From: Malacoraja senta
Taxonomy: Eukaryota
Assembly: GCA_038087875.1 (NCBI GenBank)
Contig: CM075989.1
Span: forward strand, 1,116,001 to 1,180,000
DNA: 64,000 nt
Reading direction: 5' to 3'
Shown piece after piece: positions 3,279-28,148 of this stretch; the stretch's first letter is position 1; each line of letters starts with the position of its first letter. A model generated the notes under the pieces. The model was not told where the DNA came from and searched no databases. It saw nothing but the letters and a program-made list of their open reading frames with translations. Position numbers and translations under genes: made by a program.

Positions 3279-5975
3279 AGCAGCTGTGCTTTATCTTATT
3301 CATAATATAAACCACTGCAGTGCTGGCTCGAAGGGCTGAATGGCCTATTCCTGCACCTATTGTCTATTGTCTGACAAAATGTAAGTTCAAAAAATAATTC
3401 CAGTGGCAACTAACGTTGAAGAGACAATATAAAGAACATGAATTATGAGACTGGTATGGGGAATCTAAAACCGCAACATCAAATGATGGCCATGATGTAC
3501 TGAATCTAAACTTGCCAGTATGAATGATAGCATTGGTATGGGGAATGTGAATATTATGATGGCTGCAGTGCAGTGAGTTTGAAATATAAGCATGAAAAAT
3601 GACATGTGGGATCAAAGCCGTGCTAGAAAGTGGAAACAAAGCATCACCCAGTCGGTGGTGAACACTGCCTCGCACGATGGTTGCAAACACATTCTTGTCT
3701 TTGTAAGAAACTTTCCATATTTATCTGTACTGAGAAAGTGAGCAGGCACCCGCAATCTATTGGAGCAAACGTAAACGTATACCGAAGCAAAAAGTATACG
3801 TCCTATCGAAAGACAGACAGATGGGCAGAGGTGGTGGGGTAGCTTTGTTGGTGAGGAATGAGATTCAGTCCCTTGCGAGGGGTGACATAGAATCAGGAGA
3901 TGTAGAGTCAGTATGGATAGAACTGAGGAATTGTAAGGGTAAAGATACTCTAATGGAAGTTATCTACAGGGCTCCAAACAGTAGCCTGGATATAGGGTGC
4001 AAGTTGAATCAAGTTAAAATTGGCATGTTGCAAAGGTGATGGGAGATTTCAACATGCAGGTAGACAGGAAAAATCAGATTGGTACTGGACCCCAAGAAAG
4101 GGAGTTTGTGGAGGGCCTCCGAGATGGATTCTTATAGCAGCTTGCACTTGAATCTATCAGGGAGAAGGCAATTCTGGATTTAGTGTTGTGTAATGAACCA
4201 TATTTGATAAGGGAACTCGATGCAAAGGAGCCATTAGGAGGTAGTGACCATAATATGATAAGTTTTAATCTACAATTTGAGAGGGAGAAGGGAAAATCGG
4301 AAGTGTCTATTACAGTTGAGCAAAGGGGACTATGGAGCCATGAGGGAGGAGTTGGCCAAAGTTGACAGGAAAGATACCCTAGCAGGGATGACAGTGGAAC
4401 AACAATGGCAGGTATTTCTGGAAATAATACAGAAGGTGCAGGATCAGTTCATTCCAAACAGGAATGAAAGATTCTGAGGAATAAGAGGTGACCGTGGCTG
4501 ACAAGGGAAGTCAGTGACAGTATAAAAATAAAAGAGAACAAGTATATAGCAAAGATGAGCGGGAAGGCAGAATATTGGAAATGTTATAAAGAACAACAGA
4601 AGATAACTAAAAAGACAATACGGGGAGAAAAGATGAGGTACGAAGGTAAGCTAGCCAAGAATCTAAAGGATGATAGTAAAAGCTTCTTTAGGTATGTGAA
4701 GAGGAAAAATTTGGTTAATACCAAAGTTGGACCCTTGAAGACAGAAACAGGTGAATTTATTATGGGGAACAAGGAAATGGCAGATGAGTTGAACAGGTAC
4801 TTTGGATCTGTCTTCACTAAGGAAGACACAAACAATCTCCCAGATTTACTAGTGGCCAGAGGACCTAGGGTGATGGAGGAACTGAAGGAAATTCACATTA
4901 TGCAGGAAATGGTGTTGGGTAGACTGATGGGACTGAAGCCTGATAAATCCCCACGGCCTGATGGTCTGCATCCCAGGGTACTTAAGGAAGTGACTCAAGA
5001 AATTGTGGACGCATTGGTGATCATTTTCCAATGTTCTATAGATTCAGGATCAGTTCCTGTGGAATGGAGGATAGCTAATGTTATCCCACTTTTTAAGAAA
5101 GAAGAGAGAGAGACAACAGAGAATTATAGACCAGTTAGCCTGGCATCGGTGGTGGGGAAGATGCTGGAGTCAATCATAAAAGATGAAATAGCGGCATATG
5201 TGGATAGCATTAACAGGATCAATCCAAGTCAGCATGCATTTCCGAAGGGGAATTCATGGAATTTTTTGAGGATGTAACTAGGAAAATAGACAAGGGTGAG
5301 CCAGTGGATGTAGTGTACCTGGACATTCAGAAAGCCATTGGTAAGGTCGCACATAGGAGATTAGTGGGCAAAATTAGAGCACATGGAATTGGGGGTAGGG
5401 TACTGACATGGATAGAAAATTGTTTGGCAGACAGGAAACAAAGAGTAGGGATTAACAGGTCCCTTTCAGAATGGCAGGCAGTGACTAGTGGGGTACCGCA
5501 AGGCTCGATGCTGGGACCGCAGCTATTTACAATATACATTAATGATAAGATGAAGGGATTAAAAGTAACATTAGCAAATTTGAAGATAACACAAAGCTAG
5601 GTGGCAGTGAGAACAGTGAGGAGGTTGCTATGAGGATGCGGGGTGATTTGGACAGGTTGGGTAAGTGAGCAGATGCATGGAAATGCATTTTAATGTGGAT
5701 AAATGTGAGATTATCCACTTTGGTGGCAAGAACAGGAAAGTAGATTAGTAAGATTAAACGAGAACTTACCTAAGTTTGAAGTTTGATCTTTATTTTATGA
5801 GGAGTTACGTAGGTGATTACGTGAAGAACCCCACCAGTGCGCCTGCGCGTCAATCTTCAAAGCAGCGGTGTGAAATCACAAAAAACAACAACCGAAGTAA
5901 TATAGTCTCATAATAAAACGAGTAATACAAGAACTTCCATCTGACCTTTATGATAGAGGGTAGGGTCGTGGCGGG

Positions 5976-6089
5976 CACGTAATCACCTACGTAACTCCTC
6001 ATAAAATAAAGATCAAACTTCAAACTTAGGTAAGTTCTCGTTTAATCTTACTATTTTACTTCGGAGTCACGTGAGTGACTACGTGAAGA
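5976..6089. repeat. DIRS A internal complementary region (ICR)
   Basis: 5976-6053 is the exact reverse complement of 5746-5823; 6052-6089 is the reverse complement of 10472-10509 with one mismatch. Confidence 0.95.
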
Positions 6090-6269
6090 TTTTAAAGCTT
6101 TGTGATTTCATGCCGTAGATCAATCCCGGCTTCTCACTGCATTGATTGACTCGGAACAAGAAATAATCAATCATGCATTCATAATAACATTTGTACCACA
6201 AATGCAGTAATTCATTTCAATAATGAAATGAATCAGATCCCCTTTAAACCAGAGGAATTTACACAGAAC

Positions 6270-7190
6270 TTAAAATAGTTTCTGCAAACAATCCCGCATT
6301 AACAATAGGCCGATGGTAAAAATGTTGAAACATCAACTCATTGGACCATCACATTGGCTGTGAGGATATGGTCGACGGGGACGTCTTATGCCCTGGCCAC
6401 CGACTTTTCTGCTGCCCGAGTCGAGTGAGACGTAAAAACATAAGTGTTAATACCAGCAGCTGTTATGACTTCTTTTATCCATCAGGAAATAGTCTGTATT
6501 GAAACTCTCTTGTGTGGTTTCTTGTGTGTGATTAACAACCCAGTTTCCGTATTTCTTAAATTCTTTGTGACCTCAATGCATTGTCACAAATATGTCTTAA
6601 CACAGAGACAAGGATCATTTGGATATGCTGCTAGCATAATTTTAAATCCTGTCACACCTGGCCTAATTTGCTTTAATAGGTCATAGTTATAGAATGTAAC
6701 CTTGTCTTCAGTTACTTCCATAGTGTCTATTTGTAATTTTCCAAGTGTTTGCACTCGTTGTGCTGTCACTCATGCCATAAGCATGAATACTTTCATCCTG
6801 AGCTTGACCAAAGGTAAAGGCATACTTGGTGACCATTCACGAAGTAGTTTCAGTACCACACTTACATCCCAGATTGTCATGTACCTAGGTTTCGGTGGTT
6901 TGGAATTAAAGATTCCTTTCATTAGTCTGGAAAGAATTGGGTGTGACCCAATTGGGTTTATTTCTGAATCCAGAACCAAATATGAGGGCAATGCACTTAT
7001 GGCTGAATTAATTGCACTACAACTCAGACCTTCATCATAATAGAGTTTTGACAGATTTTCTAAACATTTGAAATATCTGCAGTACTATATTGCAAATTCT
7101 TTTGTACACAGAACTTTTCACATTTCTTAATATAAGAAAGGTACTGTTTTTTGAGTGCTCTTCCTCCAAGCTGCTGTAAGCATGTCCACA
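6270..7190 (-). pseudogene. DIRS A tyrosine recombinase, disrupted
   Basis: GSHPILSRLMKGIFNSKPPKPRY..WDV, AQRVQTL, KQIRPG and HSTRAA motifs in broken frames. Confidence 0.88.
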
Positions 7191-7196
7191 GTACAC

Positions 7197-7600
7197 TCAG
7201 ACAGTCCTCGCCCCAGAAAAGGCCTTCTTAAACCTGCAAATCAACAAATCCAAACGATCATATAATGGATGTTGTTTCCCTGTTACAGGGTGCAGCAATA
7301 AATTACTCCTTTTTGGGACTTTCATCAACATTTGTGTTGTTAATTCTAATATCAACGGATACCATGGCTGTGTAGGCCAATCTGGTATTACCAATACACC
7401 TAAATCAGCATCTTGCCTGACTTTAAGCAAACACTGGCTTCTGAGGCAGAAAAGTGGAAATATATATGACAACATAACACTCCAATGTAGCGAGAAAGAA
7501 TCAATCGCCACTGCTCCTGGATCTGATTCACATGAGACATATCTCGATAGCTGATGATTCAGTCTAGATGTAAACAAGTCAATGTCAGGCATTCCAAATC
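7197..7600 (-). pseudogene. DIRS A DNA N6-adenine methyltransferase-like domain
   Basis: PDIDLFTSRLNHQL..DSFSLHW..FPLF..IPDWPTQPWYP, typical of the DIRS MT domain. Confidence 0.85.
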
Positions 7601-7630
7601 TGATTACTATATCATTGAATACCTCTCAAT

Positions 7631-9130
7631 TCAACATCCATTCTTATTATCATGGAACTTTCGTGACCTGGTGTCTGCTATCGTGTTCATTCTACCTGGT
7701 AGATAGATAGCTGAAATGCAAATATTATTTTCAATACACCCAGTCCAAAGTTGATTAGCCATTTTGTCACATGACCCTGACTTGATTTCATCCATATCAT
7801 TAATATAGGCAACTGCTGTTGTGTTTATCAATCTGAACTTGAACATGCCTTTTAGTTGTGTTAGAACAATAACCTTGGAGTCCATAGAAACATCCTAAAA
7901 CTCCAAATAGTTAACTGCCCATGTCTGCAGTAACAATGACTCTTCCTGATTCCATCTGCCTCCGCAGCTAGATGCTAAGTCCGTTTCACCCCATCCTAGT
8001 GCACTGGCATCTGTTTGTAATATCATGGAAGGTTTGTTTAATCAGCACTTTGCTGGAACTGCTTGAGACATGTAGAATCCACCACTGCAGATCAGAAACA
8101 GCATTTGTTGTCAGTTGCATGGTTCTATCAAAATGACCACCATGCATTCTCAGTGCCTGTTCTTTAACTCTCTTCAGCTGTTGATAATGTAATGGTCCGA
8201 ATTGGACTGCTGGGAATGCTGCTACTAATTTTCCCAGTACTCGAGCCACCTGTCTGATTGAGGGTTTTTGCTCGTTTACCAGATTACTGCAATCTTTAAT
8301 CAACTCCACCCTTTTTTCACTGGACAAAGTAATTTTCATTTGGACTGAATCAATTGTGAACCCCAAATAATCAATCGAGGTACATGGTGTTAACCTTGAT
8401 TCCTTTGGATGAATTAGAAACCCCAAACTTTCAAAAGTTGATTTCACAACTGCCACAGATGCTTCTGTTGACTGTTTTGTCCTTCCTATAATCAGGTCAT
8501 CATCCAAAATATGCCATTAGTACATGCCCCTGGCTTCTTAGCAACCCCAGAATTGGTTTTAATAATGTTGTGAATATTCTGGGAGCGGACGTTAACCCAT
8601 TAGGCAAAGGTTTGAACTGCCATAACTGGTTCATCCATGTAAATTTAAGATACTGAATATGTATCTTTTAAATCTATAGTTGCCATATGACATGCTTCTG
8701 AAATAAGTTGTTTGGCAGTCACAAATGTCTCTTTTAAAATGTTTAAATTAAACAATAGGATTCAGACTTGTCAAGTCTAGAATAATCCCACATCCTCGAT
8801 CCTTTTTTGATCGAGGGAATATATTTAACACAAATTGGTGAATTTGGTAGACTGATTCTTCAATAACACCTTTTATATATTGGGTTTGAAACGCAGCTTG
8901 AACCTCCATCACTTCTTTTTGTGCAAACCATATGACAATTACAGCAGGAAAACAGGCCATCTCGGCCTTTCAAGTCCATGCCGAAGAAGTGGAGAATTCT
9001 GCTAGGAACATGCTGGACAGGCAAATCCTAATTTGGATTGAATTCAATTCGAAATCCTTGTATACTATTCAGAATTACCACATCTGAAGTAATCTTCCAA
9101 TTGTTTATAGAAGAGACATAATCTGCCTCC
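7631..9130 (-). pseudogene. DIRS A reverse transcriptase / RNase H, disrupted
   Basis: KKD.GC.IILDL..LN, degenerate YLDD (..DDLII), LGFLIHPKES, YLGFTIDS, DLQWW, YLPGRMNTIADTRSR. Confidence 0.9.
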
Positions 9131-9192
9131 AACTTTTGGACTTAATCCAGTTAGTATGTTCCCATGAGAACCAGGTCCACCTACCTCTTGAG

Positions 9193-10296
9193 TCATTTGA
9201 GTACTCTGAGATTCCTGGATTCTCCCGGAAGCACCCTCACTGGTTCTTGCTCCCTCTGCAGGCCGCCAGCTACGTCCCTGCGTTTAATGAGCGACTTGGT
9301 CCTGTCCAGGATCCGTATGACGTCTGAAAGGATATTCCTCTTTACAGACTTTACAACCATTGATGTTTTCATCAATCCTGTTTTCGCTTCATCTTCCAAC
9401 TCTTTAACACATCTCTCGAGATCCTCTCCAAAGAGTAAGTTGGGTAATTGTACATTACTTGGTTTGCAGAGTGCTGCGAATTTCGGATTCATAATAGGCC
9501 GTATAGCACCTTTCCTTGGACAATTGATCTCGAAGTGGGTGCTGCATAGCAACCCCAGTGCTTCCTGATGCAACTCCGTCATCTCTTGGCTTTTATCCGC
9601 TATTCTGGCAAAGCAGTTATTCCAGATTCCAGCAGCTTTAATATTCTCTGCCATTTCAATTCTTGAGTTCTCATAATCATACTCAACTCATATTTTCTTG
9701 CATTCTCATCTATTTCCTGCTGTTCCAGCTGATGGGAAACCAAGTAATTTATTAGGGAGGCCAATTCTCTTCTAATGGCTCTCCTGACTCTGGCAGGGCA
9801 GCGAATCGTACTGCCAGGAATGGAACTTCTGGCAGCTGCCGTTCTTCGCCTTGTACAGCCTTACCGTCAGAATCGGGGTCTGAAATCTCATGACCCGTGG
9901 CACGCTCCTCATCCCTGAGGGTGCATTTTATCAGCCGTGAACCAGGAGCTGTTGAGCTGCTTCCAGCACATTGGATTTCAGTACACTCTTACCTGAGTGT
10001 GCTTTGCTCCAACAGCCTATGTAGCAGGCTTTCCATTTGGGCAATACGCTTTAAAAGCAGTATCTAGCCCTGGAGCTTCCATTTCCTGGGACTCCTCCTC
10101 CGTGGCCCGTTTCAATTCAGACTTGGACTTGCGCCCGACAGGCGTTGACTGCCCCAGGTCCACAGTCGCTATGCTTCACCGCTGACGACTGTACCGGGGT
10201 ATTAGAGGCGGTTGGTTGCTACCCGCAGACTCCCGACTTTCCCGACTTTCTGTCGGCTGTGTTGCTCGCCTCTTCCCCCTGCCCGTTTTTTCCCAT
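9193..10296 (-). pseudogene. DIRS A gag-like ORF1, disrupted
   Basis: AIRP.MNPKFAALCKP...LLFGEDL motif in the ORF1 position; frameshifts upstream. Confidence 0.65.
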
Positions 10297-11144
10297 GGCA
10301 TCTGTGGAAGAAATCCCCACAGACCCACAGTAAACGGACATGAAAAAATACTAAAAAAGTTTTTACTTACCTTGTAGTTAAAAAACTACAAATCCACTGA
10401 GGAGCTCTGCTCCTCACGTCCGTTTGCGACAAGGCGTCTGACGTAATGACGCGCAGGCGCACTGGCGGGGTTCTTCATGTAGTCACTCACGTGACTCCGA
10501 AGTAAAATATTATCTGAATGGTGTCAAGTTAGTAAAAGGGGAAGTACAATGGGATCTGGGTGTCCTTGTTTATCAGTCACTGAAAGTAAGCATTTAGGTA
10601 CAGCAGGCAGTGAAGGAAGCTAATGGCATGTTGACCTTCATAACAAGAAGAGTTGTGTATCGGAGCCAAGAAGTCCTTCTGCAGTTGTGCAGGTCACTCG
10701 TAGAGTATTGTGTGCAGTTTTGGTCTCAAAATTTGAGGAAGGACATCCTTGTTATTGTGGGAGTGCAGAGTAGGTTCACAAGGTTAATTCCTGGGATGGC
10801 GGGACTGTCATAAGAATGGAGCGACTGGGCTTGTATGCACTGGAATTTAGAAGGATAAGAGGATATCTTATTGAAACATATAAGGTTATTAAGGGATTGG
10901 ACAGAACCGGGGTCCAACATTTAAGAATAAGGGGTTGGTCATTTAGAACGGAGATGAGGAAAAACATTTTCACCCAGAGAGTTGTGAATCTGTTGAATTC
11001 TCTGCCTCAGAAGGCAGTGGAGGCTAATTCTCTGGATGCTTTCAAGAGAGAGTTGGATAGAGCTCATAAAGTTAGCGAAGTCAAGGGATATGGGGAGAAG
11101 GCAGGAACGGGGTACTGATTGTGGTTGATCAGCCATGATCACAG

Positions 11145-18525: not shown

Positions 18526-19154
18526 CAATCGTCTGCACTCGTTGTGCTGATACTAGTGTCATGACTAAGGAAGTAGCTGGTCCCTGGTGAAGTATTGTTA
18601 ACACAATGTCAATATCCCATACTGCCTCTACTTGTACTGGGAGAACTTGTGTTAAAGATATCGTTTACAAACTCGATATCCAGGGTTGAAACCCAACAGA
18701 GTGGGTCCTGTGTGTTGCAGCTAATATGATGGGAAGGCACGTTTGGCACAGTTAATGGCCCTAAACTCAATTATTGTCAGAAGACCACTTAAGAATGAAC
18801 TGGAAGACGTCAGTAATCTGTACCGTATTAAATGTAACATTAACATTAAACAAAACCGCTTCCCACCTGAATAGGGAATATACTGTTTTTTTGGTGCTAT
18901 CGCTGCACCCTGCAGTGAGCACATACATGGATTGATGTGACAACCTGAGCTGTAGGGCAGTCTATTCAGAATCTGCAAGTCAATAAATTGATTTTATCAT
19001 GCAGAGGCTGGTTTCCTGAACCACAGTTTGAACCAGCAACGTTTTTTAGAATAACCGTATATGTTTGTATTATTATGCCTGACAGAAGTGGGAATCATGG
19101 CTGCATAGCCAGTCAGACAGTACGAAAACTAAAGCGAAAATTTTGCTGGCTTTA
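18526..19154 (-). repeat. Near-identical duplicate of DIRS B interior 24556-25181, next to the N gap
   Basis: About four differences in ~630 nt, three of them single-base insertions. Confidence 0.92.
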
Positions 19155-23490: not shown

Positions 23491-23576
23491 CTAATTTATC
23501 CACTTACATATATGGACATGGCTGGCAATGGAAATATTTACTGTCCGTCTACAATTGCTCCTGAAAGGGCTGCAAG

Positions 23577-26500
23577 AATAGTAAGATTAAACGAGAACTT
23601 ATCAGTTTGAAGTTTGATCTTTATTTTATGAGGAGTTACGTTGGTGATTACGTGAAGAAGCCCCGCCAGTTCGCATGCGCATCAATCTTCAAAGCAGCGG
23701 TGTGAAATCACAGGTAACAGTAATTGAAGTAACATAGTAAGATCAGAAACTTGAGAAATACCAGATGACCTTTGTGAGAGAGGGTTTGGAGTGGAGGGCA
23801 CCTAATCACCAACGTAACTCCTCATAAAATAAAGATCATACTTCAAACTGGTAAGTTCTCGTTTAATCTTACTATTTTACTTCGGAGTCACGTGAGTGAT
23901 TCAAAGCTCTGTGATTTCATGCCGTAGATTCAAATCCCAGCGTCTCACTGCATCGATTGACTCAGGATGAGTGAATAATCAACAATGCATTATACATTAC
24001 ATTGATTTAAATGTATTAATGGTTTACAATAATAAAGAAAATCAATAGCAACCCCTCTATCTCAGGGGAGGCTAAAGTGGACGCAAAACAGAATGGGCAA
24101 ATAGCCCCGGGTCGGCAAATGGCCTATGGTAAAAAAAAAATTGAAAATTAATTCACTTGACCATCCTGTCGCCGTGAGGATATGGTCGATGGGAACATCC
24201 ATTGCCCTGGCCGCTGACGTTGATGCCGCCCTGGTGGAATGAGATGTAAAATTGTCAGTGTTAATACATGCATAAACCAGAACCTGCTTCAGCCACCTTG
24301 AAATAGTCTGAACCAACTTTTTCTCGTGTGGTTGTTTGTGGCTAATAAACAATGCTGATTCCACACCTCTTAGGATTCTGGTGGCCTTGATGTAATATAG
24401 CAAGCGTGCCCTCACACATAGACGTGAGTCCGTGGGGTATGCCGAAATATGATCTTAAACCCTGTCGCCCCTGGTCTGCTTTGCTTGTGTAGACCAGAAA
24501 TGTAAAACGTAATGGCATCTGCAGCCACTTCCATCCTATCTAGCCGCAGCTTTTGCAATGTCTGCACTCGTTGTGCTGATACTAGTGTCATGACTAAGGA
24601 AGTAGCTGGTCCCTGGTGAAGTATTGTTAACACAATGTCAATATCCCATACTGCCTCTACTTGTACTGGGAGAACTTGTGTTAAAGATATCGTTTACAAA
24701 CTCGATATCCAGGGTTGAAACCCAACAGAGTGGGTCCTGTGTGTTGCAGCTAATATGATGGGAAGGCACGTTTGGCACAGTTAATGGCCCTAAACTCAAT
24801 TATTGTCAGAAGACCACTTAAGAATGAACTGGAAGACGTCAGTAATCTGTACCGTATTAAATGTAACATTAACATTAAACAAAACCGCTTCCCACCTGAA
24901 TAGGGAATATACTGTTTTTTGGTGCTATCGCTGCACCCTGCAGTGAGCACATACATGGATTGATGTGACAACCTGAGCTGTAGGGCACTCTATTCAGAAT
25001 CTGCAAGTCAATAAATTGATTTTATCATGCAGAGGCTGGTTTCCTGAACCACAGTTTGAACCAGCAACGTTTTTTAGAATAACCGTATATGTTTGTATTA
25101 TTATGCCTGACAGAAGTGGGAATCATGGCTGCATAGCCAGTCAGACAGTACGAAAACTAAAGCGAAATTTTGCTGGCTTTATTTCAAGCCACGACTGATG
25201 AGGCAAAATGGAGGAAGACATAAAAGAACATTCCTCCTTCCTGTAGCGAGAATGTATCTCTCAACACTGTTATGCCACAAATTTTTGCAATCTGAATAAG
25301 CATGAAACCAACATGTCGATATTCGGTGTTTCATTGAACCATACTTTCATAAATACTTTGTGATCCAACACCTATTCTGTGTTGTCATCGATCTGAACTT
25401 GATGATACACCAGTGGCAAAGGAGATTAGGTAAATTATTACAGGATACTTTTAGTTGATTGCCATGTGACTAACATATGCCACCACCGTAGTGTATCAAC
25501 TTGAAGTTGAGCATGTAGATTATGTATATTTGCTCAATAACCCTTTACCCATGGGGTGCATCTAGTGTCTATAGCTAGTTGATTCCAATAGCTGAAGAAT
25601 TGGCAACTCATGCAAATCTCCTCCACCTCCAACCTAGAGATGACATTCGCAATTTTCCACCTTAGAGCCCTTAGCATCAGTTTGTAAAATTACTGAAATT
25701 CAACTGACCAAACTACTGGAGCAATGATGAATACTGTTTGTTCATCATTGTGACTTAGGTAGCTTCAACTGGTCATAGTATAAGCCTGTTAACAATGACC
25801 TACATGTCATATGAGAGGTTGCTACTTAGCAAGATGTCAGTTCCCAACTTGCACAGCTGAATCACAGCTACTGTATTACCAATTACTCTTGATGAATAGA
25901 ATTCAGCTTAATAACAGGATTCTATTAACTCCAATCTCATGCCACAAGGCAGAGTCATAGGCTAATTAATAGATAAAGGTAAATCCCAATGACCAACAAG
26001 TCTATTTGGTAACAACTTAAAGTTAACTGGATGGATGAGCCCAATTTCTCAAAAATAGTTTGAGGCTGAAACAGGTGATTTTAACAAAATACAGCATTAG
26101 AATATCATCCAGTCAAGACATAACAAGTGTTTTCGAACTCTGAGTCCAAACACCGATTTACTAATTAGTTAAATAACCTGGGGAAATAGTTTATCCCATT
26201 TTGCAATGTTTTACTGTTATTAGTACAGTTATCATCGCCTTTTGATAATTTCCAATGTCTCTTATGATCCCTGTAATGGAAACTGCATAGAATGGATCTT
26301 TGAGACCCTTATGAATCCGTTGTTAGTCAGTAAATAAGTTTCCTATTTGGAAAGTTCATATGCGAGTTAAACGACATTCTCCATTTTTCATAATGAACAG
26401 GCCACTCCTGCCATCATTCCATGGGTGCTTCGCACCATAACTCTGGCCCGATTTCCGAGCCTGTCTTGAAACCGACAATTCTGGCCCTAATTCCAAACTT

Positions 26501-28023
26501 ACTTGGAATGCTAGTATTGTGCAGTTTTACATGGTTAGATGCCTCTAAGCAGATGACAATGCCTTTATCCTTTGTGTGCTGTACAAACAAGTGTAAATAT
26601 TACCAACTTGTGAGTGGTCCACTTACCCATGGTTCGGAAGTGCCAGACCCAACTTGTTAAGTAGGACTGGTAGGGTGCGTGGAAACCTCTGCCCAGCTGT
26701 CATGCTGCCACCAGCTTCAGTGAACCGCTTACTGCCAATGAAGGCATGGGGTGCATTCTGAACCGATGAACCTTTGCCCACCTTTGGTCTTGATTGGTCC
26801 GACAGCTTTTGCTTCGTCCGCCAGGTTTTTGCTGTTGAATAGAGCTTACCTGAATAGACGATTCGGCGGCTGGCTCTCATATCCCCCTGATAGCGCTGTT
26901 CATTGCCGGCACACATGTGTTCCAGTACGTTCCACGGATATCTTTAGAATCTGAAGTCTGTTACATCTGACCTTTCGCGCCCCCCTCCTTAGAGAGGGCG
27001 ATTCGTAGGCAGCCCTAAACAGTTGCTGCCGCAGGCCCCTGGGGATACCTGCGCGGATACGGCCCCCAATGGACCTATACCAGGATGGAACATTCTGTTG
27101 GGATGGCAAACTTTGTTGTCAGGAAATGATACCTCTGACACGTGCCCTTCATCCCTTGAGGTATGCTCCACCGCTATACCTTCAGACTCAGCATCAGAAT
27201 TACACTGACCCGGCATGCTCTCTTCAAAGAGGGAGACATTAAGTAGCCCTGTCCCAGGCGCTGCTGGCGCGGGCTCTCCCGCAGGCCGGCGCTGTGACAG
27301 ATTCGGCGTCAGCAGTATACTGACCCGTGATGGTCTCCCCCTCCAACAGGGAGATAATAAGCAGCCCTGTCCCAGGCGCTGCTGGCGCGGCCTGTCCTAT
27401 AGGCCCGCGCTATTACAGATCCGGTGTCTGAGGTGACCTGACCCGACATGGTGTATTCAGCTCGGGGAATGCATGTCCAAATTCAATTTTAGAGTGTGGA
27501 GCTTCATCTGTAAAGGGTTAAAATGACAACAGAATCCATCCAAATACATACTTTTTTCCCGAAGGGAATCCTTGCAACCCGACTCCTCCGAGTTCAATAG
27601 GGCTGATCGATGTATCGGTGATTTCACCCCATGCCTGGGGACCACCGAACGACGATATGTCTGTGAGCCGCTGACCTGCTTGATTTGCCCTCCCGGGGAA
27701 CCACAGCAGGCTGGAAAATCACGAACCTGACATCTGCCGACTATCCGCTTTCGCGGTCAGAACCGGGGTCTCCCCACAGCCCATAGCCAGTTCACTCGCC
27801 GGAATTCGCCAATATCTAGCAGGATGCCTCTGTGAAAAGATGTTCCTGCAATAAATTCAAAAAACCTGATAAGTAATACAAACTTCCCTGAAGTTTTAAA
27901 CTTACCGCCGGCAGGAGCGATGCCCTGCCAGTCTGGTGCTTCGCAATGTGAACGACGATATGACGCGCATGCGAACTAGCGGGGCTTCTTCATGGAATCA
28001 CTCACGTGACTCCGAAGTAAAAT
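23577..28023 (-). mobile_element. DIRS1-type retrotransposon, copy B (different subfamily, indel-riddled interior)
   Basis: Same terminal sequences as copy A with subfamily changes; ICR at ~23799-23900; YR motifs SAQRVQTL, KQSRPG, FTSHSTRAAS; AAT present at both junctions. Confidence 0.93.
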
Positions 28024-28148
28024 CTACATTGAATGTGCACTAGGAGGCAGGGTTCTAGTGATAACTCCCATTAACCAGAATCCAGCCACTGATTTGCCTC
28101 AGATGTAGATGGCATTATGATCAGATGTGAATCTAGCCTCCACTGATA

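What the first reader, a model, noticed from the sequence alone, without database searches (positions are those of the whole stretch)
10294..10375. Position-conserved GT-AG intron in the 5' leader of both DIRS retrotransposons
Seen: on the element (minus) strand, DIRS A has AAG|GTAAGT at 10370, a 69-nt spacer and TTTCTTCCACAG| at 10302, directly followed by ATGCCATGG (Kozak-like) at the start of ORF1. DIRS B has GCG|GTAAGT at 27905 and TCTTTTCACAG| at 27830 (76 nt; alternative TTGCAG at 27846). Both donors lie about 120-140 nt from the 5' end. The leader and spacer sequences have otherwise diverged, while the splice signals are kept. Inference: a functional leader intron retained by an element that replicates through RNA implies that unspliced RNA is the replication template and spliced RNA is the gag mRNA. 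Introns are rare in retrotransposons and some YR elements are reported to have them; I cannot tell whether this one is described.
Basis: partly seen in the sequence, partly recalled or inferred. Interest (0 to 1): 0.75.

Follow-up and report, generated by a model that had tools for sequence, protein, structure and literature searches.

The report
Short leader intron in DIRS retrotransposons
Two decayed DIRS-type jumping genes carry splice signals around a 69-76-base stretch just before their first gene, and some distant relatives keep similar signals at the same spot, so this is likely a short, partly spliced intron that separates protein-making RNA from the RNA that gets copied; no spliced RNA was seen here.

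Summary
Verdict: probably a real 5'-leader intron, not yet shown in RNA. Coordinates are exact in two decayed DIRS1-like elements (ITR/ICR, gag, RT, YR). One correction: the ATG right after A's AG is private to this copy (96% of family depth reads otherwise); the likely start is ATG 10296. A strict GT-AG rule calls a leader intron in 7 of 27 leaders (A, B, 5 of 25 relatives) against 0.31 expected and 0 antisense; A and two relative lineages sit apart among intronless ones. One relative pair keeps donor, branch point and tract (27/28) while spacers drift (23/37). No intronless copy appears among 6735 contigs of A's family. The only RNA-like run does not cover the leader, so splicing is untested. 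In A the acceptor and start codon lie in a hairpin whose 5' arm is intronic. A second donor follows the gag stop (15 of 26 relatives). Best reading: weakly spliced intron, spliced RNA translated, unspliced RNA copied (0.55). It works like Penelope's 75-nt 5'UTR intron; not found in print for DIRS in my searches; the scan noted similar DIRS leader modules on other DNA.

The parts
5738..10512 (-). DIRS1-like element A, decayed copy of an abundant family
   Evidence: self-BLAST termini/ICR; RT hit 63% to a skate protein; gag relatives; family depth in X1
10440..10512 (-). A left terminus (ITR plus ICR-matched 5' end)
   Evidence: matches ICR 6089-6049 and right ITR 5852-5791
10365..10373 (-). A leader splice donor AAG|GTAAGT (GT at 10370)
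   Evidence: no variant at 5% or more over 10364-10379 in X1, X3; unpaired in centroid fold
10302..10370 (-). A candidate leader intron, 69 nt
   Evidence: bridged unspliced by an X3 contig, no skipping joint in X1
10293..10330 (-). predicted 16-bp hairpin: intronic arm 10330-10315 pairs over acceptor AG (10302) and ATG 10296
   Evidence: z -4.8; AUG unpaired 0.01, 0.49 with the intron barred from pairing
10332..10425 (-). predicted exon1-intron helix (10425-10416 with 10341-10332) enclosing two hairpins
   Evidence: inner 8 bp kept by family variants, outer pairs broken
10294..10296 (-). likely gag start codon of A (GCCATGG)
   Evidence: one search shows the upstream ATG is copy-private; start inferred
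9193..9687 (-). A gag C-terminal frame
9179..9187 (-). A donor-like site 9 nt after the gag stop (GAG|GTAGGT at 9184)
   Evidence: same placement in 15 of 26 relatives
7986..8516 (-). A RT/RNase H piece
   Evidence: RVT_1 E=0.0046, under cut-off
7234..7248 (-). A acceptor-like site at the end of pol, ahead of the YR frame (AG at 7234)
   Evidence: overlaps C-R codons
5976..6089 (-). A internal complementary region
5738..5852 (-). A right terminus (ITR + right extension, with a donor-like AG|GTAAGT at 5769)
23575..28026 (-). DIRS1-like element B, more decayed
   Evidence: YR piece PF00589 E=0.003; RT gave no tblastn hit
27900..27908 (-). B leader splice donor GCG|GTAAGT (GT at 27905)
   Evidence: predicted paired with an intronic complement, unpaired 0.02
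27830..27905 (-). B candidate leader intron, 76 nt (60 nt if AG 27846 is used)
   Evidence: no reads laid on B
27782..27784 (-). first ATG after B's acceptor
   Evidence: start inferred
26621..26629 (-). B donor-like site after gag (TGG|GTAAGT at 26626)
25001..25015 (-). B acceptor-like site at the end of pol (AG at 25001)
23799..23902 (-). B internal complementary region
23575..23684 (-). B right terminus

Best explanation
The stretch is likely a short spliceosomal intron in the 5' leader of DIRS1-like retrotransposons that would be spliced from only part of the RNA, the spliced RNA likely serving as mRNA and the unspliced RNA likely being the one copied. Shown: canonical GT-AG signals 119-140 nt from the 5' end in both elements, the same placement in two other lineages, and no intronless genomic form in A's family. 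Predicted: in A the intron's 3' half pairs over the acceptor and the gag AUG, and in B the donor pairs with an intronic complement; with a length near the lower limit for vertebrates (recalled) this would slow splicing and keep an unspliced pool. Inferred: splicing removes the hairpin arm and frees the AUG; leader-spliced RNA is mostly kept out of reverse transcription, since otherwise intronless copies would pile up; intronless lineages arose by loss, or the intron was gained more than once.
For: Strict intron call in 7 of 27 leaders vs 0.31 expected, 0 of 27 antisense; donors at +117 to +145, first acceptors 60-87 nt away. L020 vs L032: signals 27/28 identical, spacers 23/37, p=9e-4, with a CACTAAC branch site. 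A, the L020 clade and L047 lie apart on the RT tree. Intron-bearing leaders are longer (median 227 vs 182 nt, p=0.01) and no longer differ once the intron is subtracted (162, p=0.19). 6735 X1 contigs give two small joints, neither skipping the intron. A donor after the gag stop in A, B and 15 of 26 relatives (0-3 of 26 in 12 other windows) suggests these RNAs meet the spliceosome anyway. In Dictyostelium DIRS-1 a marker intron placed between left LTR and ORF1 stays partly unspliced in cDNA (PMC7192593, section 27).
Against: No junction read seen. Conservation of signals inside A's family is weak (p=0.054 or 0.29). Structured leaders also mark A's intronless nearest relatives (z -2.4 to -4.5) and are absent from the L020 clade (z -0.6 to 0.7), so structure and intron are not tied. 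Of 6 variable paired sites in A, 4 break a pair, among them a 45% variant in the acceptor hairpin that also makes an in-frame ATG inside the intron. Freeing of the AUG is seen for A only (0.01 to 0.49) and weakly L062 (0.00 to 0.17), not B, L020, L032, L069. A and B have no clear branch site. 20 of 25 relatives lack a strict call. The calling rule was set after seeing A, B and L020, and the 5 relatives form only two lineages.
Confidence: 0.55

Rival explanations
1. The leader is a structured RNA signal (packaging, priming or promoter region) and the splice-like words in A and B are by-products that are hardly ever used.
For: A's leader folds at z -4.8 and the acceptor lies wholly in a stem; intronless sister leaders are also structured; 12 of 18 variable sites are unpaired where 41% of bases are; no intronless copy exists, as expected if nothing is spliced.
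Against: A's donor hexamer is unpaired yet invariant; shuffles give the pattern in 3.4% and 0.6%; unstructured relatives keep donor, branch site and tract.
Confidence: 0.2
2. The donor is real but works mainly as a U1-binding or major donor: it boosts transcription or joins the leader exon to a distant acceptor such as the one before the recombinase frame, and the nearby AG is seldom used.
For: L009/L012 have the donor at +86-88 with no acceptor call; A and B have an acceptor-like site at the end of pol; most A-family copies read a second AG only ~31 nt after the donor, too close to splice (length limit recalled).
Against: Five relatives pair the donor with a tract and AG 60-87 nt away, two with a branch site; a separate post-gag donor already faces the pol-end acceptor, also in intronless-leader families.
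Confidence: 0.13
3. The intron is spliced efficiently and survives as in models for Penelope: by an antisense template, or because intronless copies are poorly translated and die out.
For: Penelope's 75-bp leader intron is mostly spliced and its deletion abolishes reporter protein (PMC2377424, passages); X7 holds edited contigs that point to antisense RNA of this family.
Against: Dead-end intronless copies should still collect in the genome and none shows; DIRS-1 reverse-transcribes spliced marker RNA (PMC7192593, passages); intronless lineages thrive.
Confidence: 0.08
4. The leader GGTAAGT is a copy of the terminal motif and pairs with the ICR during cDNA end repair.
For: The ICR holds an 8-nt complement of both leader donors; the motif stands in A, B and 13 of 16 relatives whose ICR start was found.
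Against: The ICR motif is near universal while the leader donor is patchy; the ICR has an 86-bp partner in the right extension; it does not explain branch site and tract.
Confidence: 0.04

Closest known systems
DIRS1-like tyrosine-recombinase retrotransposons (PMC3266345, passages; PMC7192593, sections 3 and 27 and passages)
   Same: gag, RT/RH/MT, YR; inverted termini, ICR, right extension
   Different: no native intron is mentioned: 'intron' and 'splic' occur 0 times in PMC3266345, PMC9210276 and PMC3783388; introns in some YR elements are recalled from Goodwin and Poulter 2004, which is not held
Penelope 75-bp 5'UTR intron and Chlamys-3_cRei 398-bp 5'UTR intron (PMC2377424, PMC8557442, passages)
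   Same: short GT-AG intron just behind the promoter and ahead of the ORF, kept through retrotransposition, splice sites conserved between diverged elements; spliced and unspliced RNA coexist
   Different: other order of retroelements (RT with GIY-YIG endonuclease, pLTRs); splicing shown by RT-PCR there, not shown here
Retroviral and LTR-element major splice donor with partial splicing (recalled)
   Same: donor in the 5' leader; unspliced RNA is the genome; structure near the donor
   Different: there the removed part is coding and gag comes from unspliced RNA; here the candidate intron is a short non-coding piece upstream of gag

Membership tests
DIRS1-like retrotransposon | inverted termini with ICR complementary to both outer ends, right extension | tested here: met
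   both elements
DIRS1-like retrotransposon | gag-like ORF1 | tested here: met
   167 relatives at E<=0.001 for A; frame broken; B only faint hits
DIRS1-like retrotransposon | RT/RNase H/methyltransferase ORF | tested here: met
   A; B too decayed for a tblastn hit
DIRS1-like retrotransposon | tyrosine recombinase ORF | tested here: met
   B piece PF00589 E=0.003, below the curated cut-off; A-B 42% over 278 aa
DIRS1-like retrotransposon | no target-site duplication, 3-bp junction | not tested
   joints at A's ends in X1 were seen but not analysed
U2-type spliceosomal intron | GT donor with consensus context; pyrimidine tract and YAG | tested here: met
U2-type spliceosomal intron | branch site | tested here: inconclusive
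   clear CACTAAC in L020/L032; only weak candidates in A and B
U2-type spliceosomal intron | signals better kept than spacers | tested here: inconclusive
U2-type spliceosomal intron | junction reads in RNA | tested here: inconclusive
   X7 does not cover the leader
Penelope-like element | RT fused to GIY-YIG endonuclease, pLTRs | tested here: not met
   YR and ITR/ICR instead; resemblance is in the leader intron only

The most novel reading that the evidence does not exclude
Animal DIRS elements run a retrovirus-like splicing programme in which an optional leader intron acts as an RNA switch: unspliced, its 3' half locks the acceptor and the gag AUG and marks the RNA for copying; spliced, the AUG is freed. 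The intron sits at the same distance from the 5' end in at least three separate lineages and may have been gained more than once, beside a second, more widespread splice that removes pol.
Probability: 0.25. Interest if true: 0.7.

Novelty: new variant of a known kind. Interest (0 to 1): 0.45.

Why it matters
Retroelements should lose introns because they are copied from RNA; Penelope-like elements are the textbook exception. A leader intron in DIRS would be a second case, in an element whose template strand is known, and its patchy spread gives natural intron-plus and intron-minus relatives to compare. It makes testable how DIRS elements sort their RNA between translation and copying, and it marks a short region in which to look for the unknown packaging or priming signal.

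Tried and rejected
No whole genome was held, so copies could not be aligned one by one. No RNA holder listed. X7 looks like RNA (A>G at 110 places vs 45 in X1) but has only 3 contigs on 10170-10515 and none on the leader; no reads were laid on B. Pattern and protein scans of viral and prokaryote collections found nothing. First gag search empty. No Rfam match in 5600-28200. TCAG|GTAAG in B near 26850: decayed codons of a conserved gag motif, rejected. 78-nt GT-AG stretch in A's gag (9992-9915): aligns as coding to P0087, weak. HUSH evasion as the purpose: unlikely, since a small artificial intron did not protect and protection rose with length (PMC8770142, passages). IQ-TREE failed or timed out; the FastTree tree leaves out B, uses 177 columns for A and has weak deep support, so gain versus loss is not resolved.

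Full report
Setting. Self-BLAST shows two minus-strand elements, A (10512-5738) and B (28026-23575), each with short inverted termini, an internal complementary region and a right extension. A's RT piece is 63% identical to a skate protein, its gag piece has 167 relatives, and B's 3' frame gives a weak phage-integrase hit: DIRS1-like elements, likely in a cartilaginous fish (inference). Both are decayed. No genome was held.

Observation. The donors, acceptors and lengths are as reported. Dinucleotide shuffles of the leaders give a GTRAGT donor with a tract and YAG 58-130 nt later in 3.4% (A) and 0.6% (B) of 1000 trials. The first 110 nt of A and B align at 77%; beyond that alignment is ambiguous.

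A's family. Ten runs were listed, none on record as RNA; I laid five of them. X1 (2132 million letters of contigs, read as DNA; it may be the source sample) holds the family at great depth. On 10170-10515, 6735 X1 contigs gave two small joints, neither skipping the intron, and an X3 contig bridges the intron unspliced. Contigs can drop rare forms, so this bounds rather than excludes intronless copies. No variant at 5% or more falls in 10364-10379, 10301-10309 or 10321-10339; variants and indels gather in 10340-10363 and at 10320. Leaving out two sites (10310, 10340) where the window copy alone differs, signals vary at 0 of 18 positions and the interior at 9 of 51 (p=0.054), or p=0.29 if the low-depth cluster 10348-10353 counts once. 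At 10300, 96% of depth differs from the window, so the ATG right behind the AG is private and ATG 10296 in GCCATGG is the likely start. At 10340, 97% differ, which gives most copies a second AG about 31 nt after the donor. At 10320, 45% carry an ATG inside the intron, in frame with 10296. X7 looks like edited RNA, mainly antisense, and does not cover the leader.

Relatives. A profile of RT relatives fetched the best 80 of 213 metagenome loci (hosts unknown). I kept 25, one for each distinct leader with its 5' part on the contig, dropping near-duplicates and loci without a 5' end; for L053 and L066 the contig start stood in for the end. With A and B, 7 of 27 leaders pass the strict rule against 0.31 expected, and 0 of 27 on the antisense strand; the relatives alone give 5 of 25. 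The rule was set after viewing A, B and L020. Donors lie at +117 to +145. L020 and L032 keep donor, CACTAAC and tract at 27 of 28 columns but spacers at 23 of 37 (p=9e-4). On a FastTree RT tree of 37 rows (B left out) A, the L020/L032/L062/L069 clade and L047 are separated by intronless leaders, among them A's nearer relatives L001, L002, L015, L034. L009 and L012 have a donor only; L003 and L021 pass only a looser rule. Intron-bearing leaders are longer by about an intron.

Structure. A's leader folds at z -4.8, B's at -2.4, L020 and L032 not at all. In A an intronic arm pairs over the acceptor and AUG; barring the intron from pairing lifts the AUG's unpaired probability from 0.01 to 0.49. 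In B the donor is paired (0.02 unpaired). The AUG effect is missing in B, L020, L032 and L069, strong folding also marks A's intronless relatives, and 4 of 6 variable paired sites break a pair. Structure is thus a plausible damper of splicing in A and B, not a general part of the intron.

Wider splicing. Following earlier scan notes I checked the gag end: A and B have a donor just after it, as do 15 of 26 relatives within 5-55 nt of the stop, against 0-3 of 26 in 12 other 50-nt windows; a YAG at the pol-end C-R codons stands in A, B and 9 of 26 relatives, where coding constraint could contribute. These RNAs therefore likely balance spliced and unspliced forms anyway.

Mechanism. Shown: signals, placement, recurrence, no intronless DNA form seen. 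Predicted: masking hairpins. Inferred: partial splicing; spliced RNA translated; unspliced RNA copied (0.55). I put the chance that the intron is spliced at all at about 0.7.

Literature. Ten full-text searches listed no paper on a native DIRS leader intron. Term searches found no 'intron' or 'splic' in PMC3266345, PMC9210276, PMC3783388. Read: PMC7192593 (passages, sections 3 and 27): a marker intron between left LTR and ORF1 stays partly unspliced in cDNA. Passages only: PMC8557442 and PMC2377424 (Penelope and Chlamys 5'UTR introns), PMC3846280, PMC8770142, PMC9341512, PMC5718144, PMC13465315, PMC12477816 (nothing on this). No supplements were read. Goodwin and Poulter 2004 is not held; I recall that it reports introns in some YR elements, so print novelty is uncertain, and Repbase could not be searched. 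The scan has noted a hairpin-held leader mini-intron and a pol-removing splice in DIRS elements of other genomes; these are unchecked notes.

Verdict. New variant of a known kind; interest 0.45, held down by the lack of junction reads, the Penelope precedent and decayed copies.

Noticed in passing
window 9184 and 7234 (A); 26626 and 25001 (B); relatives L001-L075: Donor right after the gag stop and acceptor-like site at the end of pol, framing a ~1.9-kb (A) pol intron; donor in 15 of 26 relatives. Most stop-to-donor distances are under 55 nt, which would escape nonsense-mediated decay (rule recalled).
   Followed up: partly
window ICR 5976-6089, right extension 5769; L001-L075: The ICR carries an ACTTACC motif in A, B and 13 of 16 relatives whose ICR start was found (2 cut by contig ends, 1 interrupted), so the right extension carries a perfect donor-like GGTAAGT about 30 nt from the 3' end. 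Could be a U1 site near the RNA end or a recombinase site; one paper search listed nothing on it.
   Followed up: partly
window 27551-27508: 44-nt GTATGT...TTTACAG stretch in B's gag, directly before a segment that aligns with A's gag; short for a vertebrate intron.
   Followed up: no
window 9992-9915: 78-nt CAG|GTAAGA...CCCTCAG stretch in A's gag holding a stop; aligns as coding to P0087.
   Followed up: partly
window 5930-6061, run X7: Contigs with dense A>G changes over the ICR and spacer, absent or rare in X1: likely A-to-I editing of antisense RNA of the ICR/terminus hairpin.
   Followed up: no
window 10440-10500 and 27960-28015: Left termini hold E-box-, NRF1- and CRE-like words (labels recalled); a GCGCATGCGC-like word recurs in many relatives.
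   Followed up: no
window 18526-19154: 99% copy of B 24556-25181 beside an N gap: a recent duplicate or an assembly artefact.
   Followed up: no
window 5738 / 10508: A sits inside a common LINE-like repeat; X1 contigs join both flanks without the element.
   Followed up: no
window 27183-27452: Tandem duplication of about 117 nt in B's gag.
   Followed up: no
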